DNA of 64,000 nucleotides from Bacillota bacterium (GCA_040751815.1 JBFMHQ010000004.1:12756-76755), one strand, 5' to 3'; shown: positions 10,601 through 62,366, counted from the first letter of the stretch. The notes: a model not told the origin generated them from the letters alone. Made by a program: numbers and translations.

Positions 10601-10677
10601 AGGGCTTGTAGAACCGAGGTGTTCTCGGCTAGGCTTGTAAAGAGAAGGTACCAGGAATGGAAGCAAAAGGTGACATC

Positions 10678-11780: not shown

Positions 11781-12983
<1,203 letters not shown>

Positions 12984-27254: not shown

Positions 27255-28457
<1,203 letters not shown>

Positions 28458-49101: not shown

Positions 49102-49453
49102 GGGGGCGACGAGGTTTCGACGGGGGAAGCGGTAACGAGGGGAGCGAGCCGGGGTCGTCACCAGCCCGTAAGACGGTGGCAAGGCAATAAACGCCAACAA
49201 GACCGAAGTAGCTCTGGCCGCTTAATCAGGCCGGCATCCTGCCGGTTCCCGCCCGCGGAGCCGGCTAGGGTGTCAACCTAGCGGGCTTGCCGGCGGGCCG
49301 CTTCTCGGAGGCCTGCCGGGACATCCATCGAGATAGCCTGCGCGCAGCCCGGCTGCGGGCGGCCCGCAGGCGAAAGCAGTACGCAGCCTGCGCTCGGAGA
49401 GCCTCTCGGGGTCGTTCCTCCGGACAGGGGTTCGACTCCCCTCGCCTCCACCA
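49102..49453 (+). ncRNA. ssrA: tmRNA (ssrA), predicted tag ANKTEVALAA
   Basis: 5' GGGGGCGACGAGGTTTCGACGGGG pairs with 3' CGCCTCC-ACCA, including the G3:U70 alanine identity pair. T arm GGGGTTCGACTCCCC. In-frame GCC AAC AAG ACC GAA GTA GCT CTG GCC GCT TAA at 49193-49225. Confidence 0.93.
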
Positions 49454-49626
49454 TTAAAATCCACAACCACTTTGAGGAATAGATCGACGTGGTCCTCGTG
49501 GACCACGACTTTGTCTACATAGGTAGCCACGACTCTCTTACAGGCTTGAGGATCGCCCGCGAGTATGTCCTGCCTGTGCTTTTCCAAGAGCGCGGCGATC
49601 ATCTCCTCGGTTAGTTCGCCGGTCTC
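49454..49626 (-). pseudogene. site-specific (serine-type?) recombinase C-terminal remnant reading into the tmRNA 3' end
   Basis: Minus frame ETGELTEEMIAALLEKHRQDILAGDPQACKRVVATYVDKVVVHEDHVDLFLKVVVDF continues in frame across the ssrA acceptor/T arm. A stop lies immediately upstream (49627-49629) and there is no catalytic domain. Confidence 0.4.
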
Positions 49627-49691
49627 TTAAGAATAGGCCATTAACATATCCGTTACTCCTTGATCAGCAGCCATACATTAGGAAGTATTTA

Positions 49692-50076
49692 TTGGCCCTT
49701 TATGATAACTTACTGGACTATCGGAATGAAGTAGTCCACCGTAACCGTTTCCATGTTGCCGACGACAGGCTCATAATTTCCACCGCCCGCAAAGAGCCTC
49801 GAATTAGACCGCGGACGCCTTGGGGCACTGGTCAAAGTTGCCGTGTCTGTAGCGGATATGCTTGCCGGTGCCGCGGCCCACGACCAAGAGGCAGATGCTT
49901 GGCTTAAGTACCACCTTGATCGGATCTATGACCTGCATGAGTTGCCGGCATTTGGTCAAACGCAACTCCTGCGCGTAAACGTGGAGCTAAAGGTCGAAGG
50001 GGAAAACGAGGTATTTAGGGCGGACTTACGTGCCATGTGGGACGTGCTCACCAGAATCTACCGAATGCCACTATAG
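49692..50076 (+). pseudogene. frameshifted hypothetical gene with a HEPN-like RNxxxH motif
   Basis: LLDYRNEVVHRNRFHVADDRLI resembles the DUF86/HEPN RNxxxH block. Track ORFs 49692..49907 and 49843..50076 overlap in two frames. Confidence 0.25.
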
Positions 50077-50404
50077 TTGCCGACCTGAAGATTCTGGGGC
50101 TGTTGGGCGGTGAGCCGGTGGCGAGCTGGGTTTTCCCCGCTGGCTCGGTTCCCGATAGTGAAGTGTTGGAACTACAGAGCAGTAGCTATGTAGAACACCA
50201 ATATCTACTATGCGTGAGTAATGGGCAAGTCGTTGCAGACATGGATACGTGACAAAACCCCTGACGGTCATGGCTCTCCGCACGTAGCGGCCGCACTCGC
50301 CCCTTTTCCCGATCCATTTTAGCCCCCTTCTTACCCGTCTTTCACGCCAGCTCGACCCCTTATTCGACGTCGAAGGCCAAAATCATGCCTGGCAAGGAAA
50401 ATTT

Positions 50405-50602
50405 TTGAAAATCTCACACAGGCTGTTAGTTGACAACCTAAAAAGTCACCTGGAGCAAGCCGAGTACGAGGCTTGGAACGCGCTGGCCCGTTACAAGTTT
50501 TTGATGTTTGCTTACTGGGCTTCTATATGGGTGCATTTAAACCGCTTGGGGGGCTTTAAAGGGCATACGGTGACCGGGCGCGGTTGCGTCTGGTTCTTAT
50601 AG
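50405..50602 (+). CDS. hypothetical small protein
   Basis: 65-aa ORF (ALARYKFLMFAYWASIWVHLNRLGG) followed by a terminator at 50649. Confidence 0.4.
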   Translation: MKISHRLLVDNLKSHLEQAEYEAWNALARYKFLMFAYWASIWVHLNRLGGFKGHTVTGRGCVWFL

Positions 50603-50648
50603 AGACTCCGCTGTTGACAATGGTGTTATGTACCTAGTTCATCGTTCA

Positions 50649-50676
50649 ACCCGCCTGTTGGCGGGTCTTATTTTTT
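50649..50676 (+). terminator. rho-independent terminator
   Basis: ACCCGCC-tgtt-GGCGGGT followed by CTTATTTTTT. Confidence 0.65.
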
Positions 50677-50914
50677 GGGGGCGGTCAGTGTGAACGGGCA
50701 GGGCGACATCGGAGTTACGTGGAGCGAGATGAGCGATCGCCTTCAAGTTATCAGGCGGGCGCTGTACTGGCTTGAGGCGGCCGTCGAGGCCAGAAGCGTG
50801 CACGATCTCGTAATACAACTTTCCACAATCGAGGACGAACTGCGATGGCTGCGAATGGGTACGGATTCACTCGAAACGCCGGGTGAGGTGGTGCGGAATG
50901 CCGCTGCGCTTTAA
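50675..50914 (+). CDS. hypothetical protein (start probably GTG 50690)
   Basis: ORF track only. No recognisable motif. Confidence 0.3.
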   Translation: MGAVSVNGQGDIGVTWSEMSDRLQVIRRALYWLEAAVEARSVHDLVIQLSTIEDELRWLRMGTDSLETPGEVVRNAAAL

Positions 50915-51068
50915 GTCGTTCGCGGATGTCGGCGTCTACCTTGGGGTAATCCCGCGCGTGGCCGTCATGCGGCACGCCCTGGAAAGTTACCGTGAAAAAG
51001 TACTTAAATGGGTCGGGTACCCGTTGACGGAAGAGGAAGCGGAGGACCATCTGCGGGAAGTCGTGTAG
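50898..51068 (+). CDS. hypothetical small protein, possibly HTH/excisionase-like
   Basis: MPLRFKSFADVGVYLGVIPRVAVMRHAL resembles an AlpA/MerR-type HTH. Weak. Confidence 0.3.
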   Translation: MPLRFKSFADVGVYLGVIPRVAVMRHALESYREKVLKWVGYPLTEEEAEDHLREVV

Positions 51069-51280
51069 CGCGGGCAGCCCGGGCGGCGGCTTCCCGGCGG
51101 GGCGCGCGAATACGTGCTGGACGGCCTGGCGGTGGCCGCGCGCGAGGACGCCGGCGGGATCATCGTGGTTTTGACCTGCCAGGGGGACCGCGAGTGGGTC
51201 AAGTGGCGGTGGCGGCAGGAGGTGCGGCGACGGTGGTCGCGCAAGGCTTTAGCGGCACTGTAGCCGGTTTCAGCAGGTGA

Positions 51281-51607
51281 GTACTTTGCGAGTATGCGAT
51301 TTTCGTCCCCGCGTCCTGGGGGAAAGAAGCGGTCAGGAACCTGCGGCGCGACCCCAGGTCAAGGGCGGTCCCCGTCGTAGTCGTGGGCGGCGGCCGGGAG
51401 TTCGTGCACGCCGGCGCGGACAGGTGCGTCGGGCGAATTACAGACGCGTTGGTGGATGAGGTTGCCGCCCTGGCGGACCGGCTGCGCTCTCTGTGGGAGA
51501 GGGCGGAGACGGACCCGCTCACCGGTTTGTACACCCGCGGCTTCTGGGACGTCTGGCTTCAGGAGCAAGTACGGTTGGGAAGGCGCCAGGAAAGGGGGGT
51601 TCCCAAG
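51281..51607 (+). pseudogene. response-regulator diguanylate cyclase (REC-GGDEF) remnant
   Basis: Frame open from 51281: ...KEAVRNLRRDPRSRAVPVVVVGGGREFVHAGADRCVG (end of a REC domain), a linker, then ETDPLTGLYTRGFW (start of a GGDEF domain). It then breaks off. No REC N-terminus and no GGDEF active site. Confidence 0.5.
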
Positions 51608-51772
51608 TTGAGCAAGCTCGTGCGGATACTCCGCGAGAAGCGCGGGCCCACCTTGGTCGAGTGGGCCGCCCTGGGGGTGCTCATCATCCTGGCGGTCTGG
51701 GCGGCGACCCAGGCGCTGGGCGTGAGCATCGGCGGCGTATTCCAGGACATCACAGGAAGGTTGGGACATTGA
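51608..51772 (+). CDS. Flp/Fap-family type IVb pilin (orphan)
   Basis: TTG 51608 (or GTG 51620) follows GGGGGG. MSKLVRILREKRG/PTLVEWAALGVLIILAVWAATQALG matches the Flp G/xxxxE(Y/W) cleavage motif plus hydrophobic helix. Confidence 0.6.
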   Translation: MSKLVRILREKRGPTLVEWAALGVLIILAVWAATQALGVSIGGVFQDITGRLGH

Positions 51773-51779
51773 CTGTGGC

Positions 51780-51808
51780 GCCGGGGGGGAGCCCCGGCAT
51801 TTTTATTT
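51780..51808 (+). terminator. rho-independent terminator after the Flp gene
   Basis: GCCGGGG-gggag-CCCCGGC followed by ATTTTTATTT. Confidence 0.65.
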
Positions 51809-51912: not shown

Positions 51913-53709
51913 TCACAACGGCCCGATTCCGGGGCCCACGGCATTCGAAGGCGGAGAAACACCGTAGGCGTTGTAGGCTCTGACACGATAAACGTGCAGG
52001 TACCAGGCGTACGGGGGAGAATCTTCGTACGCGGTAACGTTTGGGCCTACCCGTGCTATTTCGGTGAAGCTTGCAGAAACGTCTTGCCGTTCGATAATGA
52101 AACCATCTTCGTTGGTGGAGTTATCGTCCCAGGTTAGCCTGATTCTCCCTTCTGGCAATACTTCGGCCACGAGATTTGATGGGGCGTTGGGAATGCTGGG
52201 GGTGGTGGCCGTCGATACGTTGGAATAGTCCGAGGTAGCCGCGGCCTTATAGGCACGGACGCGGTAGGTGTAGGTGGTGCCCGGGTGCAGGCCGGTGTCC
52301 ACGTAACTCGTAACGTTGGCAGGGACACTTGCGATTTCAACGAAGTTCAGGGAACTCGCGGTGCGCCTTTCGATGCGGAACCCGTCTTCATGGAGCGAGT
52401 TATCCCGCCAGGTCAGCTTGACCTCGGTGGCCGCGATGGCCGTGGCAACCAAGTTCGAAGGTGGTTCGAGAACGATTGGCGTCGTAACCGTCGCTTCGTT
52501 CGAATAGCCTGAGGTCCCTGCGGCATTAAAGGCCAGAATGCGGTAGGTATAAGTGGTATTGCCCTCGACGGCACGGTCTGTGTAACTCGTGGCTTGCCCG
52601 ATCAGGGTGGCCACCCGCAGGAATGCCCCGGCCAGCCCTGCCCGGCGTTCAATAACAAATCCGTCCGCGCCGCTTCCGTTGGTTATCCAGGTGAGGTCCA
52701 CCTGGCCCGGCACTACGGCGGCAGCCGCCAGACCTGACGGATCTGGCGGAACATTCACCGGGAAGGTGGCCCGCACATCGATAATCGTCATCATGCCGCC
52801 CGGGTACTCATCGCTGTTGACGAGGTGCAGCAGTTCCCGGTCGTAAAGGTATTGCTCTCCCGCCGGAGGGGTATATACCAGGTCGCACGTCTGGCCCGGC
52901 CCTATGGTGACGGCGTTTTTGAGATAGCTGGCGTCCAACAGAGCGTTACGGCGGGGCCAGGCGTCCTCGGCGATTACACGCGCGGGTCCCCCGGCTATGG
53001 CCAGGGTATGGGGCAGGAAGCCGGCGTTGATCACACGCAGCAGGACTCTGGCGCCGGAAAGCACGTGGACACGGGCGGTAAGCGGTTGGGTGGACGTGTA
53101 GGGCGGCGCTATACAGTCTGGGAAGGGACGCCCGTTGATCAGCCAGTACCGGGGCGCGTAGCCGAGCGGATTGTAGGGGGTGCCGGCGGGAATGATGTCG
53201 TGCGCCGCGGGATCCAGTTCACTCAGGATTATCAAGGCCTCAACATCGTAACCACTGCCGGTGTCAGCACCGTACGCGGTGCGCAGGGATGGATCTGCGC
53301 CGTCATAGTCGGCCGGCCTCACAATCAGTGCGCCGTACAGACCCATCTGGACCTGCCGTTCGGGGCCGGTCCCCCCTTCGTAGCGGAAGGTTCCGGGGCG
53401 GGAGACAGGGAAGCTGTAGACCACACTCCTCCCGGGATCCGCAGGACGGTCCAGGGAGATTAGCCGGCCTTCGCCGTCGAGGACCGGATCCGGGGTAAGG
53501 TCCTGTCCCGGAAAGATGAGGCACACGGGTTCGTTTAATCTGTTGTGCAGCGTAATCTCTACCGTGTCCCCCACGCGGGCTTCAATGACCGGCCCGGGCA
53601 GTTGTGGTGCCGCGGTCGGATTTGTGGCGATGCCCCAAAACACTGTGGGAACACCGCCGGGCAAGGAGGCGATACCGGGGCGTACCCAGAACTGTTTTCG
53701 TACCAGCAT
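51913..53709 (-). CDS. two-cupredoxin-domain multicopper-oxidase-like protein lacking all copper ligands, fused to three fibronectin type III domains
   Basis: Paralogous to the next two genes (QLPGPVI, RQVQMGLYGALIVRPA, RYWLINGR, PGGMMT). The ligand positions read EGG, PHTLAIAG and LLHLVN. The C-terminal approx. 290 aa contain 3 repeats of the L.W......DGF.IER........Y.D..L...T.Y.YRV.A.N form. Confidence 0.8.
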   Translation of the reverse strand: MLVRKQFWVRPGIASLPGGVPTVFWGIATNPTAAPQLPGPVIEARVGDTVEITLHNRLNEPVCLIFPGQDLTPDPVLDGEGRLISLDRPADPGRSVVYSFPVSRPGTFRYEGGTGPERQVQMGLYGALIVRPADYDGADPSLRTAYGADTGSGYDVEALIILSELDPAAHDIIPAGTPYNPLGYAPRYWLINGRPFPDCIAPPYTSTQPLTARVHVLSGARVLLRVINAGFLPHTLAIAGGPARVIAEDAWPRRNALLDASYLKNAVTIGPGQTCDLVYTPPAGEQYLYDRELLHLVNSDEYPGGMMTIIDVRATFPVNVPPDPSGLAAAAVVPGQVDLTWITNGSGADGFVIERRAGLAGAFLRVATLIGQATSYTDRAVEGNTTYTYRILAFNAAGTSGYSNEATVTTPIVLEPPSNLVATAIAATEVKLTWRDNSLHEDGFRIERRTASSLNFVEIASVPANVTSYVDTGLHPGTTYTYRVRAYKAAATSDYSNVSTATTPSIPNAPSNLVAEVLPEGRIRLTWDDNSTNEDGFIIERQDVSASFTEIARVGPNVTAYEDSPPYAWYLHVYRVRAYNAYGVSPPSNAVGPGIGPL

Positions 53710-53713
53710 GGTC

Positions 53714-54949
53714 TCATCTCCTCTCCCCGGAGGGAGTCTTTTGCGAACGGAGCAAGCCCGTGTGGGGGCCGAGGCTTCCGGTAGGAAAAATGCCGATCAT
53801 GGTCATCATGCCGCCGGGAAACTTACCCCAGTTGGTGATCTGCGGTTCTTGGTGGGAGTGGAGCATAAAGTAGTACTCGCCCATTGTGTTGAAGGATGTT
53901 ACGCCTACAGGTATATCGCTCTTTATCCCCAGGTAGGGGCTGCCGCTCCACATCGTCCACCCTGCGCCCCCGATGGTCTGGTTGCGAGGGTTGGGAAGTA
54001 ACGTCGGGATGGGGTTCGTTACCGGATCGTAGCCCAAACCGTGCCATTCGAAGATCTGATCGTAAGTCTGGCCGCAGCCGACCAGCACCGTGAAGTGCTT
54101 GTGAGATAAGTCCTGCGTGCCGTTCCTCAGCAGCCGGCCGTCCGTTGCGACGACCCGGGTATGGTTGCCGTGAGGGTGCAGGGGGTGGTTGTCGACGCCC
54201 GCGCCGGCGTAGCGCAGGAGCACCTTTTCGCCCGGCTCCGCCATGATCATTGACCCGTATGGCTGCTGGGGAAGGTAGCCTGCCCCGTCGGGAAACATCG
54301 TATCGGGGGCACAGCGTCCGTTGATCGTCCAGTAGCGCGGCCTGTACGTGCCGGCCAGGAAGGGTTGCCCCAGTCGGACGGCCTCGTGCAGCAGCGGGTC
54401 GATCTCCCCGAGTACCAGAAGGTATTCGCGGTCGAATTCCGTTTCCGTTCCCGTCCCGTATGCCGTCCAGGTCGTCCGGTCCACGGGATCAAACCCGGCC
54501 GGGCGGACGATAATAACGCCATACAGGCCCATCTGCACCTGGCGGTGCATGGCCGTTCCGCTGTAATACAGGTAGGTTCCCGGGTTGAGTGCCGTGAAAC
54601 GGTAGGTCACCGTGCCGCCGGGAGGTGCGTAATCGGTGAGCGATATCAGGCGTCCGTTTGCGTACACGGGTTTAACGGGTGCGGTGCCGCTCTCGCTTGC
54701 GTTGAGCACCCCGCTCTGACCGGGGAACAAGATGGAGACGTTTTCGGGAAGCTCGTTGGTCAGCTTAACGGTAATCGTATCGCCCTGGTTAACCACGATC
54801 AATGGGCCCGGGAGTTGCGCCGGCCTCTCAGGCTGGTCCGTGTAACCCCATATGTAGATGCTTGCGCCGTCCGGGGTAATAATGTAACCCTCAGTGGCGC
54901 GCAGGTTGACGGTCACCGCCGTGCTTGCCTGGACAACCTCGGTTTGCAT
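53714..54949 (-). CDS. two-domain multicopper-oxidase-like protein retaining only the domain-2 trinuclear-site histidines
   Basis: Domain 1 motifs lost (VSILFPGQ; YLYYSGTAMH). Domain 2 keeps NHPLHPHGNH (54161-54190) and LHSHQ (53852-53860), with Ser in place of the T1 Cys. Confidence 0.8.
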   Translation of the reverse strand: MQTEVVQASTAVTVNLRATEGYIITPDGASIYIWGYTDQPERPAQLPGPLIVVNQGDTITVKLTNELPENVSILFPGQSGVLNASESGTAPVKPVYANGRLISLTDYAPPGGTVTYRFTALNPGTYLYYSGTAMHRQVQMGLYGVIIVRPAGFDPVDRTTWTAYGTGTETEFDREYLLVLGEIDPLLHEAVRLGQPFLAGTYRPRYWTINGRCAPDTMFPDGAGYLPQQPYGSMIMAEPGEKVLLRYAGAGVDNHPLHPHGNHTRVVATDGRLLRNGTQDLSHKHFTVLVGCGQTYDQIFEWHGLGYDPVTNPIPTLLPNPRNQTIGGAGWTMWSGSPYLGIKSDIPVGVTSFNTMGEYYFMLHSHQEPQITNWGKFPGGMMTMIGIFPTGSLGPHTGLLRSQKTPSGERR

Positions 54950-54967
54950 AGCATCTTCCTCCTCATC

Positions 54968-56002
54968 TTATAGCCCTGGCCCGGCCTGCGGCGGCAGGGT
55001 ACCGGCGCTTATCTCAACGTACGTCATCATCCCGCCCGGAGAAATTCCTGCATTGTTGTTTTTGTGATAACCCCTGTTGAACAACGGATAAACCCCGGGT
55101 TGCTGTGGTTCGATGATGGCGTCAACGGTCTGCCCGGCGCCGAAGTAAAGCACGTCGCGCCGGTGCGACAGGTCCTCACCGTTAAGGCCGCGCAGCAGCT
55201 GGGCATCGCGCGCGACGATTTTCATGGGCAGCCCGAGGATGGTGATGGCGTGCTGCTCATAGCCGAGGTTGACAAACCGTAAAAGCACCTTTTCCCCGGC
55301 GTTGGCCCGTATCAAGCACGGGTAGGGTTGCTGCGCCAAATCGCCTCGGGGTGTTATATCTGTGGTGTCCGGGTAAGCGCGGCCGTTGATCAACCAGTAA
55401 GCCGGGCGGTACTCGGTCCAGTCGTATTCCTGGGCGTTGAGGGTTTGCGTATGGGCCGAAGGGTCAAGTTCCGTGAGAACGAGAAAGTACTCCCGGTCAA
55501 AGGCCGTTCCCGTACCGGCCCCGTAGGCCGTCTTGAGCTGGGGATCTGCGGGATTATAGTCGGCGGGGCGGGCGATTAAGGGCCCGATCATGCCCATCTG
55601 AATATGTTCCACCGGCTCGAAGTGGCAATGGTACATGTAAGTGCCGGGATCCCTGGGTTCGTAGTAGTAAACGAAGTTGCGGCCTACGGGCACGGCAAAC
55701 GACGCCTCGGGCACCCCGTCCCAGAGCGGGATCTGGTTGCGAAAGCCGTGCCAGTGGATGGTATGTGAATCGTCAAGGTCCGGGCGCTGCGGCGTTCCCA
55801 GGTTGGTTAGAGTCAATTCCACCCTCCAACCAACCGCAACGTCCAGGAGCGGGGCTGGCAGCTGGGCCTTGCCCCGGTATCCGAATATCTCGTTTTCGGG
55901 GATTCCCGTTAGGTCGACAAAACCGAAAATGTAATGTGTCGAGCCGTCGGGCATCCTGATAAAGCCGTCGGTTGCCCCGTAACGCAGCTGAACGAGTGGC
56001 AC
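54968..56002 (-). CDS. two-domain multicopper-oxidase-like protein retaining only domain-1 copper ligands (HWHG, HCH....H..M)
   Basis: HTIHWHGF (55745-55756) and YMYHCHFEPVEHIQMGM (HCH at 55622-55630). Domain 2 has no HxH motifs (YEQHAITILG; GYHKNNNAG). Confidence 0.8.
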   Translation of the reverse strand: MPLVQLRYGATDGFIRMPDGSTHYIFGFVDLTGIPENEIFGYRGKAQLPAPLLDVAVGWRVELTLTNLGTPQRPDLDDSHTIHWHGFRNQIPLWDGVPEASFAVPVGRNFVYYYEPRDPGTYMYHCHFEPVEHIQMGMIGPLIARPADYNPADPQLKTAYGAGTGTAFDREYFLVLTELDPSAHTQTLNAQEYDWTEYRPAYWLINGRAYPDTTDITPRGDLAQQPYPCLIRANAGEKVLLRFVNLGYEQHAITILGLPMKIVARDAQLLRGLNGEDLSHRRDVLYFGAGQTVDAIIEPQQPGVYPLFNRGYHKNNNAGISPGGMMTYVEISAGTLPPQAGPGL

Positions 56003-56047
56003 CAGAATACCCCCTTCCCTATTGACATAGAGGGTCTTTCCTGCCCC

Positions 56048-59000
56048 CTAACGGGCTTCGCAGGCGCCGATATCCACCGTTGGCCCCTGCGGCCTCGGCT
56101 TACCGTCGTGGTCGGTATCGGGCGCGTTGAAGGTCTCGCTGCCAACGGTTAGAGTAGAGGCGCCCCGGTCGATGACCGGCGAGTCAGGGTTGAGGTGGTA
56201 GTCGCCCTGGACTTCGGGGACGGCGGTGACGATCTTCACGGTCTTGAAATCCGGTTCCATGTTAAAGGCCACCGCGGTAACGGCGGTATCGTACGCGGCG
56301 ACAAAGGACGGGTCGCCGATAACGTTGGTAGGGTCGGGAGCGCCGTAAGGTTTGGAGAGGCTGCAGTATACCGGGCTGAACACCTCCGGTGTCGGGGTGC
56401 CGAAGACCTCGAGGTCAACGACGTTTATCGGTGTGGCGTCCCCTGTGGCACCGATACCGACAATGCCGCCGCGCCCTTCATTGGCGGTCTGGTCGTACCA
56501 ACCGGCGCGGTTATCCCAGAAGATGTTGTTAAAGAGGACGGGGTTGCTGAAGGGCGGGGAGCCCGGTGGCAAAATGGTCCTGAAAGCGGCGCTGTGCGCC
56601 TCGCTGACCAGGCCGGCCCCGTGCGGCCGGCCGTCGCTGTCTTCGGCCGTAGCCGTGGTGATGTTCTTGGCGATGGTGTTGTTGTAAATAACCACGTTGG
56701 ATGCGTCGTCCAGGGCAATGCCGCCCCCGAGGTCGGTCGAAACGTTGTTGGTGATGATATTGTTGTAAATGTTGATGCGGAAAGTACCCGGTTGCAGCAG
56801 GCGGATGCCGCCCCCGTCGTCGTTGGCCAGGTTGCCTTGGATGAGGTTGTTGTAGATGTCTACCGCCCCGGAACCGGGAGTGAAGGCATCAGGGGCCGCC
56901 GGCTGTTCGCCCCCGACGAAGATCCCTCCTCCTTCGTCAAAGGAGGCGTTGAAAAGGAACCTGTTATGGTAGATGCGCCCGCCGTGGCTGAGGCCGTAGT
57001 GGGACAGACCGCCACCGTATTCGGCGGAGTAGTTGCCGCAGACCTCGTTATGGTCGAACTCGTAGCCGTGGGCTCCGGAGAAAATCCCCACGCCACCGGC
57101 CAGGCTTATGCCGCCGTTGTTAAGGATCCGGTTGTGGTGGATGCGTACCCCGTCGTTGGCGTTATCGCCGGCATAGGGTCTGCCGATAGTGATCGCTCCC
57201 CCGAACCCGCCGCCGTTGCTTTGAATGGTATTGTTGCTAATTTCCAGGTACCGGCAATAGGCATTGACAAAAATCCCGCCGCCTTCTTCGCCTCTGGCGC
57301 CGGTGATGGTAAAGCCGTCGATTTGCGTCCGGAAGGCGGCGCCGAAATCCCCATCTCTGGCTACGACCGTGATCACCTGTCCGCGGGGTATTTCCTGGGA
57401 CCCGTCGAAGGTCAGCGAGGCGAGTTTGGTTTCCCAGGACCGTTGGTAGCTGGCGAAAAAGCGGCCGTCCAGTTTCGTTGCCTCGGGGCCCATTCCCTGC
57501 AGCTTTATGTTCTTGTAGACGATAGGGCTTTCGTAATAGACGCCGGGGTAGACGACAACCAGTGCTCCCGGGGGTGCAGCGTCGATGGCCGCCTGGATGG
57601 TTGTCGCGGGCGTTGCGTCGTAAATCGGGGGGCTATATCCGCCGCCCAGAACGTGTATCGTAATACCCTGCGTGCCGGAGATGCCGGCAGCGGTGGTCAC
57701 GACGAGTTGGGCCGGGCCGGCAGGAAAGTTTCTGGGGATGCGCACGGCAATGAGCGTATCGCTCCAGTACAACACGGGGATGGGCACGTTGTTGAGAAAA
57801 ACCGTTCCCCGGGTCCGGCCGAAGTTGCGCCCCCTGATATTTATCCTGCGGTTACCGGTTGGAGTGACGTAGACTCGGTTGACGCTCCCGACCTGTGGGA
57901 TCGCGGTGGTTTGGCAGACCGGCGGCCGGGAGAACTGTGCTCCCGGAATTCCCACGAAGGCCGTTATGGGGAAGAGGGCTACGTCGGCATACGTGGTTTT
58001 GCCGGGCCACACGTCGAAAACCATTTTCAGCGTCTGGTAGTTGGGGTTATAGTTCGCGTTGGGCCTGTCGGGATCGCCCGGGTCGTTGCCGACGATCTGG
58101 TACATTCCCGGCGCCACACCGGAGGGGGTTGGTACGTTGGCCGTATAGGTCGAAGGGAGGAGTACTTCGAAAACACCGTTGGCATCCGAATGAACCGTTT
58201 TGATCAGTTTTCCGGTATAATCCCGGATGCCGACCGGCGTGTGCGGGATGCCGCGCTTTTCGCCGTAATAGATAAAGGCAGGATCGGTCTCAAGGTTCAC
58301 GTCGTCCAGGAGGAACCCGACGATGCGGCCGGGCACCGGAACGTCTGTGTACAGGAAGAAGTCGGCCACCGCGTTTTGGCCGTATTTCACGGTTACGATT
58401 TTCGTGTCCCTGGTGTCGCCGTAATAGGGGGGCGGGGCCGTTTGGGCCACAAACTCATCACCCTCGTCTGTATTGACGCTTGTGGCGCTAAGAACCTTGT
58501 AGAGCGGTCTGGGCCGTCCCTCCACCGGATTGTACGGATCGGCGGGTGGTACAACCTGCACCAGGTAGGTCCCGGGGAGAAGCGGTTTTTCAACTGCCCC
58601 CGGGGCGCCGTAATAGGGGTCGAACCAGGTGTTGAACGCGTAACCGCCGTCAAAGGCGCCTTCCTTAATTTGATTGGAGCTATGCGGAACTTCAAGGCAG
58701 TTCGGGTCGGGGGTGCCGTCGGGCCTTACGCACCCGGCAGGATGCTGCCAGGCGTCGGTTTGTACGCTATTAATGAGGGTCTTTGTGCCGTCCTCGTTCA
58801 AGCGGTACAGGTTGACGGTGACGTTCGGGATGCCGGGTTCGTACTCTTCGGCTACGGCGTAGCGGGGGTCGAGCTCGTTGCGCATCGTCGCGTAGTAGAC
58901 AACCCCCGAGATACCCCCGTGGATCACATCGTCTGCCGTTCCAACCGTTCCGTCCGGCCCCGGCAGGGGGTATTCCCACATTCCCCAGTCGATACGGTTC

Positions 59001-60493
59001 GTCTTTGCCGCCCACGTAAGCACGGCCAGAGTAAGCACCCCGGGATGGGTGCTGGTGGGGCGCGGGGGGGCAATGCCGGCATCAGGGGTGGCGGTGGCAG
59101 CGGTAGGTCCGAAGCGCGTAAAGTCAAGCTCCGCCACGGCGAACCTTTCCAGTTCGAAAACCTCGTTCAGTGAGTACCAGCCCTCCGCGTCGGTTACGGT
59201 GCTGTATTGGACGCTGCCGTCCTTGAAGCGCGTGCCCACCGCGACGTTTGGGATGCCTTCTTCGACGTAATTTCCGTCGGCGTCTTTATCGCGTATGCCG
59301 TTGCCGTTCTCGTCGCGGAAGACCGTCCCGCTTATCCAGCCGAACCATCGCGGTATGCCGATATCGCCCATATCGACCGTTTCGCCTTCGCCGACCTGGA
59401 CCGTGCGGAAAGAAATGATGTGGTCGAGGGGCTCATCCCAAATAGCCATCTGGTACAGCCCCGCCGGCACGTGTTCTATTGTGAACGTGCCGTCCGGGTT
59501 GCCCCGGCCGGTGTAAACCTGCTCGTCGTTGCCGCCGATATCGGTCAGGGCAATCCAGGGGCGGTCGACCGGCCCACCGAGGATGAGGGGCCTGACCGGG
59601 GGTGTAAACTCGATGATGGTACGCACGCGGCCGATAATTGTGCCCGTCCCCGCTCCGGGAGCGAAGGCCATCGGCCTTACGAAGCCGATCCAGACGAGGG
59701 GCATCCGGAAACCTTCCCGTGGGCTGTATCCGTCGTTGCCCTCCTCCACCCAGGCATCGATCACGTGCGTGCCCTCAATGGTAGTCGTCTGGATCCAGTC
59801 CGTGCCGTCCGGGGGGATTGCCTGGACTTCGTATTTTCCCGGGGGAAGGTTTTCAATAACCGCGTCGCCGTTGGCGTCGGTCAGGATTACCCCGCCGGTA
59901 TTAGGAACGGGAATCGGCTTCCCTTCAGGGTCGAGGATAAGGTTTCCGCCGTCATCGCGTTGGTAAACGGTGCCGAGGGGATTGCCGAAATAGTCCACCG
60001 TTACCTCGCCTACCACGTCGCCGATGACGATCCGAAAGCCCGGGAGGCCGTGTTCCAGGGGCACGTCGTCTTCGCCGTTTACCGGGTGGTTATCCTCGAA
60101 AACGTGAACGCGAATCCTGGAAAGGGGCAGGGGATGGGGCTGCAGCTCAACCGTCACTGTACTGTCGCTATTCAGGTCGATCCAGTTGCCCCCCAGTTTA
60201 TGTCCGGGCGCTCTCACGGTGACAAGATATTTGCCGGCGGGCAGTAGGACTGCGGGCCGCACGGAATCCCCCGTGGCTACGACCGGACTGTGGCTCGCTC
60301 CCGGTTTCAGGGACGGCCAGTTCTCACGGTTTGGAGCGAATGGATCTCCTACATTGTCCTCGTTGACAATGAATTTGAAATCGGTGATAGGCGTGCCTGT
60401 TCCTGCCTGCAATACCCTTACGACAAGCCGAAACAGGCGAGCCTGTAACTTGCCCGGCACGGCCGGTTTCCTGCCATTGTCCGCGTCCTTCAT
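56048..60493 (-). CDS. 1481-aa multidomain protein: SdrD-B/Cna-B-like beta-sandwich repeats, IPT/TIG domain, right-handed beta-helix (PbH1 repeats, choice-of-anchor-Q-like end)
   Basis: ISGTVFRDENGNGIRDKDADGNYVEEGIPNVAVGT...TDAEGWYSL (SdrD-B-like). VNRVYVTPTGNRRINIRGRNFG...LVVTTAAGIS (IPT). Repeated ..NN.I..N blocks (ISNNTIQSN, HHNRILNN, IYNNLIQGN, IYNNIITNN, IYNNTIAKN). C-terminus DTDHDGKPRPQGPTVDIGACEAR. ATG follows GGAGG. Confidence 0.85.
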   Translation of the reverse strand: MKDADNGRKPAVPGKLQARLFRLVVRVLQAGTGTPITDFKFIVNEDNVGDPFAPNRENWPSLKPGASHSPVVATGDSVRPAVLLPAGKYLVTVRAPGHKLGGNWIDLNSDSTVTVELQPHPLPLSRIRVHVFEDNHPVNGEDDVPLEHGLPGFRIVIGDVVGEVTVDYFGNPLGTVYQRDDGGNLILDPEGKPIPVPNTGGVILTDANGDAVIENLPPGKYEVQAIPPDGTDWIQTTTIEGTHVIDAWVEEGNDGYSPREGFRMPLVWIGFVRPMAFAPGAGTGTIIGRVRTIIEFTPPVRPLILGGPVDRPWIALTDIGGNDEQVYTGRGNPDGTFTIEHVPAGLYQMAIWDEPLDHIISFRTVQVGEGETVDMGDIGIPRWFGWISGTVFRDENGNGIRDKDADGNYVEEGIPNVAVGTRFKDGSVQYSTVTDAEGWYSLNEVFELERFAVAELDFTRFGPTAATATPDAGIAPPRPTSTHPGVLTLAVLTWAAKTNRIDWGMWEYPLPGPDGTVGTADDVIHGGISGVVYYATMRNELDPRYAVAEEYEPGIPNVTVNLYRLNEDGTKTLINSVQTDAWQHPAGCVRPDGTPDPNCLEVPHSSNQIKEGAFDGGYAFNTWFDPYYGAPGAVEKPLLPGTYLVQVVPPADPYNPVEGRPRPLYKVLSATSVNTDEGDEFVAQTAPPPYYGDTRDTKIVTVKYGQNAVADFFLYTDVPVPGRIVGFLLDDVNLETDPAFIYYGEKRGIPHTPVGIRDYTGKLIKTVHSDANGVFEVLLPSTYTANVPTPSGVAPGMYQIVGNDPGDPDRPNANYNPNYQTLKMVFDVWPGKTTYADVALFPITAFVGIPGAQFSRPPVCQTTAIPQVGSVNRVYVTPTGNRRINIRGRNFGRTRGTVFLNNVPIPVLYWSDTLIAVRIPRNFPAGPAQLVVTTAAGISGTQGITIHVLGGGYSPPIYDATPATTIQAAIDAAPPGALVVVYPGVYYESPIVYKNIKLQGMGPEATKLDGRFFASYQRSWETKLASLTFDGSQEIPRGQVITVVARDGDFGAAFRTQIDGFTITGARGEEGGGIFVNAYCRYLEISNNTIQSNGGGFGGAITIGRPYAGDNANDGVRIHHNRILNNGGISLAGGVGIFSGAHGYEFDHNEVCGNYSAEYGGGLSHYGLSHGGRIYHNRFLFNASFDEGGGIFVGGEQPAAPDAFTPGSGAVDIYNNLIQGNLANDDGGGIRLLQPGTFRINIYNNIITNNVSTDLGGGIALDDASNVVIYNNTIAKNITTATAEDSDGRPHGAGLVSEAHSAAFRTILPPGSPPFSNPVLFNNIFWDNRAGWYDQTANEGRGGIVGIGATGDATPINVVDLEVFGTPTPEVFSPVYCSLSKPYGAPDPTNVIGDPSFVAAYDTAVTAVAFNMEPDFKTVKIVTAVPEVQGDYHLNPDSPVIDRGASTLTVGSETFNAPDTDHDGKPRPQGPTVDIGACEAR

Positions 60494-60525
60494 TTTGTGC
60501 GACCTCCAGTGAGTTCTGTAATATA

Positions 60526-60552
60526 TAAGTTATGCATCTTGGCATATTTTGT
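60526..60552 (-). promoter_or_regulatory. candidate sigmaK-type (mother-cell) promoter upstream of the four-gene operon
   Basis: Minus strand reads AC-N16-CATAACTTA (AC at 60551-60552, CATAnnnTA at 60526-60534), about 32 nt upstream of the ATG. The motif is short, so this is tentative. Confidence 0.3.
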
Positions 60553-60993
60553 CACAAATGGGAGACTACGCTAAACGCTGGGGGTGTCATGTTTACGGCA
60601 GGAAGGAATAGAACTCTGGATTATATAAGGGTAAGTGCCGCAAGGATAGAATACCCCGAAGGAAATAGAGATTGTAGAAATTGGTGCCGCGATTGGCTTC
60701 CTGAAATGGAGTGTCTCTAAGAGAGAATTGAGAGCGACATATGGTTTATTCTGGGGCACGCGAAAGGATTTTTGGAATCGACTCAGCGATAGCCTTTATG
60801 TAACTGAACAGGCCCCGGGGGTTTACGGCTTCGACAGGGTCGCAAAGTTACCCTGTAGCTTCGTCTGGTGATGCAGGGGGGATCTTCAGGAATTGCCACT
60901 TTCGGGGATGGAGACATGCTGCTTGGGGGAGAAGTATTCCGTCTGATGCCGATTGGGTTTAGAACCCGGAGCAGGTATCTATCTCTTCCCGCT

Positions 60994-61356
60994 CTAATAC
61001 AGCACGTCGAACGCGACCAAGGTGGCGGGCGCCTCGCAGGCCAGTTTCTTCGGTTTCTCGGCTGCGCAGGCGAAGCGGCGCATCACCCTGGCGAAGTCGG
61101 GCTGGTCGCCGGTGAACACGGTCAACTCGCCGTCGATGATCACGTCCCGCGCGGGCAGGGTCAGGCCCTGGAACTCGGGGAACTGCCCGGTGCAGCGCGT
61201 GCCGTGCCTGGTGTAGATTTCGATTTTCCCCGACGCGAAATCGGCGTGCAGGAGCGCCCGTATCCCGTCAATTTTGGGTTCGAATAGGTGCTCCTCACTA
61301 TCGAAAGGTACCTTACACTGTACCGGGAGCATCGGCTTGATCGCGGTAAAGAGCAT
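60994..61356 (-). pseudogene. ATP-dependent DNA ligase (LigD-type) N-terminal fragment
   Basis: Motif I EPKIDGIRAL, motif III VIIDGELTVF, motif IIIa LVAFDVLY, then a stop. Motifs IV-VI are absent. Confidence 0.6.
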
Positions 61357-61539
61357 TGCAGCAACCTCCAATACAAAATCGTGGCGCGGGTTGTCCCGTC
61401 ATTGCAACGGCTTTTTGCTGGTGAGGGAACCACACTTTACCTGATAAATAGACTCCTTTAACTATTTCCCATCGGTTATGCGTGTTAATGCTCACATTAT
61501 CTGACCGGTATTTGCTCTAATTGGCTGGCCGAGAAAGAG

Positions 61540-61560
61540 AACCGGCCGCGTGGGCCGGTT
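61540..61560 (-). terminator. hairpin terminator after the transposition ATPase
   Basis: AACCGGCC-gcgtg-GGCCGGTT overlaps the stop codon. T-rich tract follows on the minus strand (TCTCTTTCTC). Confidence 0.5.
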
Positions 61561-62366
61561 CACGACTCGTCTTCGAACTCCCCGAGGGCGCGCCTGGCCG
61601 TGGCCTCGTCGATGATGGATTTTTCCTGCAGGAACCCGTCCAGCAGGCAGGCGGTGCAGATGTTGTTGATCTTGCGGGGTATGCCCTTCGAGAAGTGGTA
61701 GATCACAGCCACGGCCTCGTCGGAGAACAGCGCGTGCTTGGCACCCGCCACCCGGAGGTGATGCTCGATATAGGCTTTCGTCTCCTGGGCCGAGAGCCCG
61801 CTCAAGTGAAACCGTAGATTCACCCGCTGGGCGATGGCCTCGAAGGTCTGCAGCCGCAGCCGGTGCCGCAGCTCGGTCTGGCCCACCAGGATCAGGGCCA
61901 TGGGCGAGGCGGCGTCCATTTGAAAATTGGTCAAGAACCGGATTTCCTCCAGCATGGCAGGACTGAGCAGGTGCCCCTCGTCGATGATGATTACCGGCTG
62001 CTTGTCGTGGTTCTTGTAGGCGTCCCAGAGAGCCTCGACGAGCTGCCGCCGGGCGTCGGCCGCGTGAAAGGCGGGCTTGAGCCCCATCTGGATGCAGAGT
62101 TCCCGGTAGAGATGCCGGGGTGTGAGGCCCGAGTGCGAGACGTACAGCACCCGGTAGTGCGCCGGGTCCAGCTGATGGGAGAGCGCCCGCACCGCGGTGG
62201 ACTTTCCGGCTCCCACCTCGCCGGTCAGAAGCCCGAAACCGCGCGTGCGCACCAGGTAGTTTAACCGCGCCAGGGTCTCCTTGACCTGCGCCGAAGGAAA
62301 CAGGTTCTCCGGCGCGATCTGGCGGCTGAAGGGCGTGGTGGTGAACCCGTAAAAGGCTTCAAACAC
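61560..62366 (-). CDS. AAA+ ATPase, ExeA/TniB-like transposition helper
   Basis: Walker A GEVGAGKST, Walker B VIIIDEGHLL. Typical partner of Mu/Tn552-type DDE transposases. Confidence 0.8.
   Translation of the reverse strand: MFEAFYGFTTTPFSRQIAPENLFPSAQVKETLARLNYLVRTRGFGLLTGEVGAGKSTAVRALSHQLDPAHYRVLYVSHSGLTPRHLYRELCIQMGLKPAFHAADARRQLVEALWDAYKNHDKQPVIIIDEGHLLSPAMLEEIRFLTNFQMDAASPMALILVGQTELRHRLRLQTFEAIAQRVNLRFHLSGLSAQETKAYIEHHLRVAGAKHALFSDEAVAVIYHFSKGIPRKINNICTACLLDGFLQEKSIIDEATARRALGEFEDES

What the first reader, a model, noticed from the sequence alone, without database searches (positions are those of the whole stretch)
51913..60493. Intact four-gene operon: giant beta-sandwich/IPT/beta-helix protein plus three paralogous two-domain multicopper-oxidase-like proteins
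The minus-strand genes encode proteins of 1481, 344, 411 and 598 aa, with gaps of 45, 18 and 4 nt. Each gene has its own GGAGG-type SD. The block is preceded by a 500-nt low-GC leader and ends next to a convergent terminator. The three smaller proteins are clear paralogues. Shared blocks are QLPGP/QLPAP, (R/E)(Q/H)(V/I)QMG(L/M).G..I.RPA, TAYG.GTG, DREY.LVL.E.DP, RP.YW.INGR and PGGMMT. They have the two-cupredoxin layout of 2-domain MCOs. I know of no characterised system that pairs triplicated, differentially degenerate 2dMCO paralogues with an adhesin-like beta-helix giant. This is my best candidate in the window for a previously undescribed system.
Basis: partly seen in the sequence, partly recalled or inferred. 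Interest (0 to 1): 0.85.

Follow-up and report, generated by a model that had tools for sequence, protein, structure and literature searches.

The report
Split three-gene copper oxidase with giant partner
Four conserved genes appear to encode a copper oxidase whose single active site is shared between two different subunits, with a third copper-free subunit tethering it to a giant scaffold protein; multicopper oxidases are not known to be built this way, and the layout resembles a proposed evolutionary step toward human ceruloplasmin.

Summary
Four intact minus-strand genes (G 1481 aa, A 344, B 411, C 598) have gaps of 45, 18 and 4 nt. A, B and C are 38-42% identical two-cupredoxin paralogues. 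G is an all-beta giant.

The copper ligands are split. A domain 1 keeps the full type-1 site plus two HxH motifs. B domain 2 keeps the other two HxH motifs. C has none. One complete T1 plus trinuclear centre therefore exists only at an A(d1):B(d2) interface.

The split is conserved in 68 loci from Bacillota, Chloroflexota, Actinomycetota, Myxococcota, Acidobacteriota and Proteobacteria. A, B and C are each monophyletic. Natural B-C and C-G fusions exist. Where B is lost, A's ligands decay.

Best reading: an obligate A-B-C pseudo-trimeric two-domain multicopper oxidase with one active site, tethered through C to scaffold G. Outside Bacillota, A carries a Tat or Sec signal and B, C and G carry Sec-type signals. 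In the Bacillota clade, including this window, none of the four does. A sigma-K-like promoter precedes G, which hints at assembly in the mother cell onto spores. That hint is speculative. The substrate is unknown.

I found no paper, solved structure or curated family model describing this arrangement. Rating: new variant of a known kind.

The parts
60526..60552 (-). Sigma-K-like promoter candidate: AC, 16 nt, CATAACTTA. It lies about 33 nt upstream of G's ATG.
   Evidence: Sequence read. The loose motif AC-N16/17-CATAnnnT is upstream of G in 9 of 31 Bacillota-clade loci, against 1.9 in shuffles (maximum 5 of 100), 1 on the reverse strand and 0 of 4 non-Bacillota loci. It is absent upstream of G in the closest Moorella loci. 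This is a candidate only.
60494..60993 (-). 500-nt low-GC spacer upstream of G. It contains the promoter candidate and the SD GGAGG at 60503-60507.
   Evidence: GC 0.48-0.50. No Rfam match even at E <= 1. No sigma-70 consensus match.
56048..60493 (-). G, 1481 aa, a giant all-beta scaffold. Residues 1-850 form a compact array of about 8 CnaB/SdrD-B/prealbumin-like beta-sandwiches. Residues 866-940 are IPT/TIG. Residues ~950-1430 are a right-handed beta-helix with a conserved (D/E)(D/E)GGG ladder. Residues 1432-1480 are a choice-of-anchor Q domain. It has no signal peptide and no sorting signal.
   Evidence: Pfam and NCBIfam. AF2 models: residues 851-1481 pLDDT 91.8, pTM 0.93; residues 1-850 pLDDT 85.6, pTM 0.85. 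Foldseek gives only generic beta-helix enzymes and tailspikes (TM <= 0.36) and pilins, SdrD and the B. anthracis TIE protein. 188 near-invariant residues in 60 orthologues, with a single conserved His and no Cys motif. In L075 and L079 it is fused to a C-like module.
54968..56002 (-). A, 344 aa, the catalytic subunit. Domain 1 carries the T1 copper ligands (H80, C126, H133, M138) and two HxH motifs of the trinuclear cluster (H83/H85, H125/H127). Domain 2 has lost both of its HxH motifs.
   Evidence: HTIHWHG at 55745-55765 and HCHFEPVEHIQMGM at 55589-55630. These align to the same motifs of 3G5W and 2ZWN. The ligands are kept in 78-80 of 82 orthologues.
53714..54949 (-). B, 411 aa, the complementing subunit. 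Domain 1 has no copper ligands. Domain 2 keeps HPLHPHG (residues 255-261) and HSH (residues 364-366), which are the other two HxH motifs of the trinuclear cluster. It has no T1 cysteine.
   Evidence: Window 54167-54187 and 53849-53863. The four His are kept in 69-72 of 77 orthologues. B is fused to a C-type module in P0261 and P0262.
51913..53709 (-). C, 598 aa, the copper-free subunit. It is a two-cupredoxin core with no copper ligands (residues 1-~330) followed by three fibronectin type III domains (residues ~331-598).
   Evidence: Pfam Cu-oxidase_3, Cu-oxidase and fn3. Ligand positions are non-His in 67 orthologues. It is the fastest-evolving class. Its C-terminal extension varies between lineages: none, fn3, or Big_13/Y_Y_Y/Ig_J. 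It is fused to G in L075 and L079.
51780..51798 (+). Intrinsic-terminator-like hairpin of the convergent small gene 51383-51772. It marks the 3' limit of the cassette.
   Evidence: GCCGGGGGGGAGCCCCGGC followed by ATTTTTATTT. On the minus strand no T-run follows it.

Best explanation
The four genes encode one machine.

A, B and C are descendants of a homotrimeric type-C two-domain multicopper oxidase (2dMCO). In such enzymes each trinuclear copper cluster (TNC) sits between domain 1 of one subunit and domain 2 of the next. After an ancient triplication the three copies specialised. A kept only the domain-1 half: T1 copper plus two HxH motifs. B kept only the domain-2 half: the other two HxH motifs. 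C lost all copper ligands.

They should therefore assemble as an obligate A-B-C pseudo-threefold ring. It has one live interface, d1(A):d2(B), and two copper-free interfaces, d1(B):d2(C) and d1(C):d2(A). A substrate is oxidised at A's T1 copper. Electrons pass through the Cys126-His125/His127 bridge to the single TNC. There O2 is reduced to water.

C acts as an adaptor. Its variable C-terminal Ig/fn3 domains, or a direct covalent fusion in some lineages, tie the oxidase to G. G is a rigid 1481-aa beta-sandwich/IPT/beta-helix scaffold with no cofactor of its own. It positions the oxidase on a surface or on a polymeric or mineral substrate.

Shown: the gene anatomy, the ligand split and its conservation, monophyly of the three classes, the fusions, and the signal-peptide distribution.

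Inferred: the ring stoichiometry and order, electron flow, and G as a scaffold.

Secondary and more speculative: in this Bacillota host the four signal-less proteins are made in the sporulating mother cell from a sigma-K-type promoter and are deposited on the spore surface, as CotA is. In other phyla the same machine is exported, A by Tat or Sec and the rest by Sec.

The substrate is unknown (metal ion or phenolic).
For: Ligand split. A has HTIHWHG and HCHx5Hx4M in domain 1 and no HxH in domain 2. B has the reverse. C has none. The alignment to 3G5W shows the homotrimeric relative has both halves in one chain.

Conservation. 68 loci have A full and B full. Individual ligands are kept in 78-80 of 82 A sequences and 69-72 of 77 B sequences.

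The interface location of the TNC in 2dMCOs is stated for the Nmar_1354 structure (PMC11761707).

The G-A-B-C quartet is conserved in cultured Limnochorda, Desulfoscipio and Thermacetogenium with unrelated flanks. It is present in about 75 of 79 genome loci across phyla.

A, B and C are each monophyletic (70/70, 68/68, 64/64) when rooted on lone 2dMCOs that keep all four HxH motifs.

Rosetta-stone fusions. B-C in P0261 and P0262. C-G in L075 and L079.

Co-loss. In L032 and L047, B and G are absent and A's ligands have decayed.

The replacements at dead sites are themselves conserved. Glu is found in domain 1 of B and C. Arg is found in domain 2 of A and C.

G has no conserved Cys/His cluster and gives confident all-beta models.

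Export signals. Outside Bacillota about 27 of 36 A sequences have SRRxFLK and most G, B and C have signal or anchor segments. In the Bacillota clade 0 of 42 A, 1 of 41 B, 0 of 38 C and 1 of 34 G do.

The sigma-K-like motif is present in the window and enriched among Bacillota loci.
Against: There is no direct evidence of a complex. No multimer model, co-purification or structure is available, and the tools could not model interfaces.

Stoichiometries other than 1:1:1 are not excluded.

Outside Bacillota A uses Tat in Chloroflexota and Actinomycetota while B uses Sec. The shared copper cluster would then have to be assembled after export, which is unusual.

In this window B has Tyr, not the usual Glu, at the 'dead' domain-1 position.

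G's role is inferred only from conservation and fusion. Its acidic beta-helix ladder could be catalytic or metal-binding.

For the spore idea, the promoter motif is short. It is found in only 9 of 31 loci and is missing from the closest Moorella loci. No expression or proteome data were found. The host is an uncultured MAG of unknown sporulation status.
Confidence: 0.72

Rival explanations
1. A and B form the active enzyme with a different architecture, for example an (AB)n or A3B3 assembly or an AB dimer. C is not part of the oxidase ring. It is a separate adaptor or decoy that merely binds G.
For: Only A and B carry ligands. C evolves fastest, with mean within-class distance 0.59 against 0.45. 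C is the subunit fused to G.
Against: C keeps the whole two-cupredoxin core and the conserved interface-type blocks (QMG..G..I.RPA, YW.INGR, PGGMMT) shared with A and B. B-C fusions place C in the same chain as B. The conserved Glu(d1)/Arg(d2) replacements fit a closed three-member ring. Known 2dMCOs are trimers.
Confidence: 0.13
2. The three paralogues act independently. A is a T1-only electron-transfer cupredoxin protein. B is a separate type-2/3 copper protein. C is a structural surface protein. They are co-located only because of tandem duplication.
For: No physical evidence for a complex. Tandem paralogues often diverge in function.
Against: Neither A nor B alone can build a trinuclear cluster, yet both half-sites are kept under strong constraint across phyla and always together. 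When B is missing, A decays. Order and spacing are conserved across phyla. Fusions exist.
Confidence: 0.05
3. In Bacillota the signal-less complex is a cytoplasmic, non-spore enzyme. It could be an O2-scavenging oxidase protecting strict anaerobes, or it could be released by lysis or an unknown route to the vegetative cell surface. It would not be a spore-surface component.
For: All four proteins lack export signals in the Bacillota clade. Many hosts are strict anaerobes, for which four-electron O2 reduction without reactive oxygen species would be useful (the MCO property is stated in PMC7036934). The sigma-K motif is absent from most loci.
Against: A 1481-aa adhesin-like Ig/beta-helix scaffold and fn3 domains are typical of surface structures. 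The same module is clearly extracytoplasmic in every other phylum. In endospore formers, mother-cell synthesis is the well-known route by which signal-less proteins reach a surface; CotA and the MnxG exosporium oxidase are precedents (own knowledge). The sigma-K-like motif is enriched.
Confidence: 0.35
4. The proteins are non-catalytic structural components of a surface layer or appendage, and the copper motifs are vestigial.
For: Two of the three paralogues are partly or wholly copper-free. G looks like an adhesin or pilin stalk.
Against: All twelve ligands of one complete T1 plus TNC site are kept in about 90% or more of orthologues across very distant phyla, while the other positions drifted. 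That pattern indicates purifying selection on catalysis.
Confidence: 0.04

Closest known systems
Type-C two-domain multicopper oxidases (Nitrosomonas europaea blue copper oxidase, PDB 3G5W; metagenomic mgLAC, PDB 2ZWN)
   Same: These are the closest solved relatives by sequence (E 3e-20 and 1e-15). They share the two-cupredoxin chain. T1 copper and HxxHxH / HCH..H..M lie in domain 1, and the partner HxH motifs lie in domain 2. The trinuclear cluster forms between subunits.
   Different: In those enzymes one gene makes a homotrimer with three identical active sites, and every chain has all four HxH motifs. Here the motifs are divided between two genes, a third gene has none, and a giant partner gene is always attached. 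None of the three window proteins has a complete ligand set.
Six-domain multicopper oxidases (ceruloplasmin, hephaestin)
   Same: The logic is the same: six cupredoxin domains in a pseudo-threefold ring with only one trinuclear cluster, at one of three equivalent interfaces (own knowledge; the 2d/3d/6d classification and the SLAC-ceruloplasmin resemblance are in PMC7036934).
   Different: Ceruloplasmin is one polypeptide and keeps several T1 sites. Here there are three polypeptides (two in the B-C fusion variants) and a single T1 site. No close sequence relationship was found.
Small laccase SLAC (type-B 2dMCO) and copper nitrite reductase
   Same: Trimeric two-cupredoxin enzymes with inter-subunit copper sites. 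They are weak sequence hits.
   Different: Both are homotrimers. SLAC has T1 in domain 2. Nitrite reductase has a mononuclear T2 site rather than a trinuclear cluster. The window's A plus B provide eight His in four HxH motifs, which is the MCO pattern.
Bacillus spore-surface oxidases: CotA laccase, and the Mnx complex (MnxG with MnxE/MnxF) of the exosporium
   Same: These are multicopper oxidases made without signal peptides in the mother cell and deposited on spores. Mnx is a multi-subunit MCO complex (own knowledge).
   Different: CotA is a monomeric three-domain MCO. MnxG is a large multidomain MCO whose accessory subunits are small non-MCO proteins. No sequence similarity beyond the superfamily was seen. 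Spore association of the present system is only a hypothesis.
NosD / CASH-type and 'pectin esterase' beta-helix proteins; MSCRAMM SdrD and Gram-positive pilins
   Same: G's C-terminal half is a right-handed parallel beta-helix. Its N-terminal half is an array of CnaB/SdrD-B-like beta-sandwiches.
   Different: The scores are far below family cut-offs: NosD TIGR04247 33.7 against 300, SdrD 22 against 2500. There is no Pectinesterase Pfam hit, no LPXTG or other sorting signal, and no signal peptide here. The database names given to G are generic.

Membership tests
Multicopper oxidase superfamily (catalytically competent MCO) | Cupredoxin-fold domains detectable by the Cu-oxidase Pfam models | tested here: met
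   A, B and C all exceed the Pfam gathering scores for Cu-oxidase_3 and for Cu-oxidase_2 or Cu-oxidase.
Multicopper oxidase superfamily (catalytically competent MCO) | Full ligand set in one protein: four HxH-type motifs (HXHG, HXH, HXXHXH, HCHXXXHXXXXM; PMC7036934) | tested here: not met
   No single chain has it. A has two motifs plus T1, B has two motifs, and C has none. The set is complete only for A and B together.
Type-C two-domain MCO (3G5W / mgLAC type) | Two cupredoxin domains with T1 copper ligands in domain 1 | tested here: met
   Met for A only: H80, C126, H133, M138, aligned to 3G5W. Not met for B or C.
Type-C two-domain MCO (3G5W / mgLAC type) | Domain 2 of the same chain supplies the partner HxH motifs, so that a homotrimer forms three clusters | tested here: not met
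   A's domain 2 has T/L and F/R at those positions. 3G5W has HAIHTHG and HDH there. Lone outgroup genes L081-L084 keep them.
Type-C two-domain MCO (3G5W / mgLAC type) | Homotrimeric quaternary structure | not testable with these tools
   No multimer prediction or interface output was available. The heterotrimer is inferred from ligand complementarity, fusions and co-occurrence.
Six-domain MCO (ceruloplasmin type) | Six cupredoxin domains in one polypeptide | tested here: not met
   Three separate genes here. The largest natural fusion found is B-C, with four domains.
Six-domain MCO (ceruloplasmin type) | A single trinuclear cluster per six-domain unit | tested here: inconclusive
   The ligand count allows exactly one cluster per A+B+C set. 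The assembly itself has not been shown.
CotA-type spore-coat oxidase | No secretion signal; mother-cell (sigma-K/sigma-E) transcription; presence in the spore coat | tested here: inconclusive
   No signals on any of the four proteins. A sigma-K-like motif is at 60526-60552, enriched at 9 of 31 loci against 1.9 expected but not universal. Coat localisation is not testable here.
CotA-type spore-coat oxidase | Monomeric three-domain MCO | tested here: not met
   Each chain has two cupredoxin domains.
NosD (nitrous oxide reductase maturation) | Score above the TIGR04247 or PF05048 thresholds, and a nosZDFYL context | tested here: not met
   TIGR04247 33.7 bits against a cut-off of 300. PF05048 22.2 against 23.6. 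No nos genes in any of the loci inspected.
Pectin esterase (name given to G by several sources) | Match to a pectinesterase family model | tested here: not met
   No pectinesterase model among the Pfam or NCBIfam hits at E <= 0.1. Foldseek matches to beta-helix glycosidases and lyases have TM <= 0.36 and 10-15% identity.

The most novel reading that the evidence does not exclude
This is a previously unrecognised, widely distributed oxidase machine: a genuine three-gene heterotrimeric multicopper oxidase with one active site. It would be a living equivalent of the hypothetical intermediate between homotrimeric two-domain oxidases and six-domain ceruloplasmin. It is permanently coupled to a giant beta-helix scaffold. 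In anaerobic endospore-forming Bacillota the whole machine has been re-routed from secretion to mother-cell assembly on the spore surface. There it would oxidise metals or cross-link or pigment the spore coat once the spore meets oxygen.
Probability: 0.25. Interest if true: 0.88.

Novelty: new variant of a known kind. Interest (0 to 1): 0.74.

Why it matters
As far as I could find, multicopper oxidases are described as single-gene enzymes: monomers, homotrimers, or one six-domain chain.

A conserved system in which one copper centre is built from two different gene products, with a third copper-free paralogue completing the ring, would be a new quaternary solution for this enzyme class. It would also be a natural test case for the proposed route from trimeric two-domain oxidases to ceruloplasmin-like enzymes. 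That route involves duplication, loss of redundant sites and fusion, and the B-C and C-G fusions found here look like steps along it.

There is a practical consequence. Heterologous expression of any one of these 'multicopper oxidase domain-containing proteins' alone should yield an inactive protein, and genome annotation currently misses the dependency.

The module is present in hundreds of sequence clusters, including cultured Moorella-group, Desulfotomaculales, Thermincola, Limnochorda, Chloroflexota and Myxococcus strains, so the model is directly testable.

Its obligatory giant partner, and the complete loss of export signals in endospore formers, point to an unexplored surface or spore biology of strict anaerobes.

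Tried and rejected
- Sigma-70, sigma-E and strict sigma-K scans. There is no sigma-70 consensus upstream of G and no sigma-E-type match in any locus. The strict sigma-K pattern is in only 4 of 31 loci. The promoter claim is therefore kept weak.
- Riboswitch or leader RNA in the 500-nt spacer: none, even at E <= 1.
- NosD-type copper or sulfur maturation role for G: rejected because scores are far below cut-offs and there is no nos context.
- 'Pectin esterase' or glycoside hydrolase role for G: there is no family match. Foldseek hits are generic beta-helices. It is not excluded that the acidic ladder binds cations or a polymer.
- Cytochrome or other redox cofactor in G: there is no CXXCH and only one conserved His.
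- Copper nitrite reductase reading: rejected because A plus B supply four HxH motifs (eight His), not a T2 site.
- Literature searches for a heteromeric 2dMCO, for MCOs in Moorella, Desulfotomaculum or Thermincola, and for the locus tag Desgi_072x found nothing relevant. The one 'heterotrimer' (Nmar_1354) is a proteolysed homotrimer.
- A fused or multimer AlphaFold run was considered and dropped. Only window or database sequences can be submitted, and no interface or contact output is returned.
- A conserved dedicated export system next to the cassette in Bacillota: none found. Flanks differ in every genome.

Full report
**1. Observation**

- G: 56048-60493, 1481 aa.
- A: 54968-56002, 344 aa, GTG start.
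- B: 53714-54949, 411 aa.
- C: 51913-53709, 598 aa.

The gaps are 45, 18 and 4 nt. Each ORF is maximal, so no upstream extension can hide a signal peptide.

Purine-rich SD sites precede all four genes. A's is a G-run rather than GGAGG. The 500-nt spacer upstream of G has GC 0.48-0.50, against about 0.60 in the genes. A + strand hairpin with a T-run at 51780-51798 terminates a small convergent gene.

Cu-oxidase models match A, B and C. C also has fn3. G has CarboxypepD_reg, SdrD_B, fn3_3, TIG and Beta_helix. NCBIfam adds a C-terminal choice-of-anchor Q domain to G. No NCBIfam model reaches its cut-off for any of the three oxidase-like proteins.

**2. The copper ligands are split, not randomly degenerate**

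- A has HTIHWHG (residues 80-86) and HCHFEPVEHIQMGM (residues 125-138) in domain 1. That is a full T1 site (H80, C126, H133, M138) plus two HxH pairs. Its domain 2 has lost both HxH pairs.
- B is the mirror image. Its domain 1 has nothing. Its domain 2 has HPLHPHG (residues 255-261) and HSH (residues 364-366).
- C has none.

The closest solved structures are the homotrimeric type-C 2dMCOs 3G5W and 2ZWN. The alignment to 3G5W shows both halves in its single chain: HTIHWHG and HCH..H..M in domain 1, HAIHTHG and HDH in domain 2.

[quoted passage not shown] So one complete T1 plus trinuclear centre can form here only where domain 1 of A meets domain 2 of B.

**3. Conservation**

A's relatives at about 60% identity occur in many Bacillota.

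In the cultured Limnochorda pilosa, Desulfoscipio gibsoniae and Thermacetogenium phaeum the same G-A-B-C quartet is present, with unrelated neighbours.

A scan of one genome per species returned 79 loci. About 75 of them carry the cassette. The order is G-A-B-C in Bacillota, Chloroflexota, Actinomycetota, Myxococcus, delta-type MAGs and Ramlibacter. It is A-B-G in Acidobacteriota and Gammaproteobacteria.

Ligand conservation:
- A's eight ligands are kept in 78-80 of 82 sequences.
- B's four histidines are kept in 69-72 of 77 sequences.
- The corresponding positions in A domain 2, B domain 1 and both domains of C are non-histidine.
- 68 loci have both halves intact. Most exceptions are truncated or frameshifted contigs.

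Two exceptions are informative. In L032 (Ammonifex MAG) and L047 (a Clostridia MAG), B and G are missing and A's ligands have decayed. Lone A-like genes outside the cassette (L081-L084: Ktedonobacteria, Fictibacillus) keep all four HxH motifs in one chain, as ordinary homotrimeric enzymes do.

In a neighbour-joining tree rooted on those singletons, A (70/70), B (68/68) and C (64/64) are each monophyletic. The triplication and the division of labour therefore predate the spread across phyla.

The replacements at dead sites are themselves conserved:
- Glu at the first His position of 'HCH' in domain 1 of B (56/77) and C (55/67).
- Arg at the last His position of domain 2 in A (65/82) and C (38/67).

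This fits salt bridges at two copper-free interfaces of a ring ordered d1(A):d2(B), d1(B):d2(C), d1(C):d2(A). That is an inference.

B-family proteins form 231 clusters (50% identity) at E <= 1e-30 in a 1.84-billion-protein library.

**4. Physical linkage**

Two kinds of natural fusion were found.
- B-C: P0261 and P0262 are single chains. Each has a signal peptide, then a B module with HPFHPHG and HSH, then a ligand-free C-type module.
- C-G: in L075 (Vicinamibacteria) and L079 (Thiohalomonadales), a C-like two-cupredoxin module is fused to the N-terminus of the G homologue.

Together with the invariant gene order, these tie B to C and C to G.

**5. What G is**

G is conserved along its whole length in 60 orthologues. 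It has 188 near-invariant residues, mostly Gly, Asn and Asp. It has one conserved His, no Cys motif and no CXXCH. The beta-helix rungs carry a conserved (D/E)(D/E)GGG ladder.

The AlphaFold2 models are confident.
- Residues 851-1481 (pLDDT 91.8, pTM 0.93) form an IPT domain plus a right-handed beta-helix. PDB matches are only generic: GH28, GH87, PL6, tailspikes, all with TM <= 0.36.
- Residues 1-850 (pLDDT 85.6, pTM 0.85) form a compact array of about eight beta-sandwiches. The closest structures are the B. anthracis TIE protein, SdrD and Gram-positive pilins.

Database names are generic: 'pectin esterase', 'SdrD B-like', 'choice-of-anchor Q', 'NosD domain'. Family thresholds are not met. I read G as a cofactor-less scaffold or binding module. 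A cation- or polymer-binding role for the acidic ladder is possible.

**6. Localisation**

Outside the Bacillota clade:
- About 27 of 36 A orthologues carry a canonical twin-arginine motif (SRRxFLK). These include essentially all Chloroflexota and Actinomycetota.
- The Proteobacteria, Myxococcota and Acidobacteriota versions carry Sec-type signals.
- G (24/26), B (32/36) and C (25/29) carry signal or anchor segments.

In the Bacillota clade the counts with any signal are 0/42 for A, 1/41 for B, 0/38 for C and 1/34 for G. The window's proteins have none. G also ends right after the choice-of-anchor Q domain, with no sorting signal.

The window comes from an uncultured 'MAG: Bacillota bacterium'. 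Its EF-Tu clusters with Desulfotomaculales and Peptococcaceae. The nearest cassettes are in Moorella and Neomoorella, at about 80% identity.

Carriers are overwhelmingly from endospore-forming lineages. L. pilosa and Desulforudis are counted among spore-formers in the bioRxiv preprint 10.1101/2022.02.25.481979.

About 33 nt upstream of G's ATG lies AC-N16-CATAACTTA (60526-60552). This matches the B. subtilis sigma-K consensus AC-16/17-CATAnnnTA (consensus from my own knowledge). A loose form of the motif is upstream of G in 9 of 31 Bacillota loci. That compares with 1.9 in shuffles (maximum 5 of 100), 1 on the reverse strand and 0 of 4 other loci. The Moorella loci lack it.

I therefore propose, at modest confidence, that in Bacillota the machine is made in the mother cell and deposited on the spore, as CotA and the Mnx complex are. 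A cytoplasmic O2-scavenging role is the main rival for localisation.

**7. Context in the window**

Positions 1 to about 48 kb hold sigH, the rpoBC genes and the ribosomal protein operons (GC3 about 0.85). smpB and the tmRNA (49102-49453) follow.

The cassette has lower GC3 (0.70-0.77). On one side it is bracketed by a recombinase fragment and about 1.9 kb of non-coding-looking DNA. On the other side are a truncated DNA ligase and a Mu-type transposase plus AAA ATPase pair. This layout is island-like and suggests horizontal acquisition.

**8. Comparison with what is known, and novelty**

The system works like a type-C 2dMCO in chemistry and like ceruloplasmin in architecture: six cupredoxin domains and one trinuclear cluster. 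It is not a member of either as defined. No chain has a full ligand set, the homotrimer criterion cannot hold, and it is not a single six-domain chain.

Searches for a multi-gene heteromeric MCO found none:
- Full-text papers.
- PDB sequences.
- Curated family models.

The Nmar_1354 'heterotrimer' is a proteolysed homotrimer. The paper library omits most subscription journals, so a prior description cannot be excluded.

I rate the system a new variant of a known kind.

**9. Verdict**

The finding is real, intact, strongly conserved and more interesting than first described.

| Claim | Confidence |
|---|---|
| Heteromeric single-site oxidase tethered to G | about 0.7 |
| Spore-surface reading | about 0.35 |
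| Substrate | unknown |

Noticed in passing
window 49102-51380: The tmRNA (49102-49453) follows smpB (48654-49094). Next to it is a recombinase-like C-terminal ORF fragment on the opposite strand (49273-49602), then about 1.9 kb of lower-GC DNA with only short ORFs and no Pfam or Rfam hits. This looks like the decayed end of an element integrated at the tmRNA gene.
   Followed up: partly
window 51383-51772 (+): A small convergent gene whose C-terminal part (…VEWAALGVLIILAVWAATQALG…) resembles an Flp-type pilin by eye. There is no Pfam hit for the long ORF. Its terminator is the hairpin at 51780-51798.
   Followed up: partly
window 60994-63750 (-): A truncated ATP-dependent DNA ligase (125 aa, PF01068) is followed by an AAA_22 ATPase (61560-62366) and an rve/Mu-transposase-C transposase (62359-63750). 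This is a transposon-like pair bordering the cassette. The cassette's GC3 (0.70-0.77) is lower than that of the core genes (about 0.85).
   Followed up: partly
window 11781-12983 and 27255-28457 (+): Two EF-Tu genes of 400 aa. The exact-sequence look-up returned two NCBI accessions for the same protein on the same 78-kb contig, so this is a tuf duplication with identical products.
   Followed up: no
window 60218-60493 (G N-terminus): NCBI's gene model for G in this MAG (P0140, 1389 aa) starts 92 residues downstream. However, the first ~90 residues (FKFIVNEDNVG…PSLKPGASHSPVV) are conserved in orthologues, and the ATG at 60493 has a GGAGG SD. The deposited start is probably wrong.
   Followed up: yes
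P0261, P0262 (database proteins); L075:10504-17079; L079:7744-14136: Natural fusions of cassette components: B-C in one chain (four cupredoxin domains), and a C-like module fused to the giant G protein in Acidobacteriota and Gammaproteobacteria.
   Followed up: yes
L032 (Ammonifex MAG) and L047 (Clostridia MAG): Decayed versions of the cassette. Only A- and C-like genes remain, B and G are absent, and A's copper ligands are mutated (LDRYCPRM and HYEHCYHM instead of HHHHCHHM).
   Followed up: partly
L009, L019, L043: Contigs binned as Betaproteobacteria, Ignavibacteriales and Actinomycetota carry signal-less, Bacillota-type cassettes at 61-71% identity to the window. This is either mis-binning or recent horizontal transfer.
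   Followed up: no
window 10657-11106 (+): An ORF of 149 aa beside the tRNA cluster has GC3 0.44, in a genome where genes have GC3 of about 0.85. It may be a foreign insertion or not a real gene.
   Followed up: no
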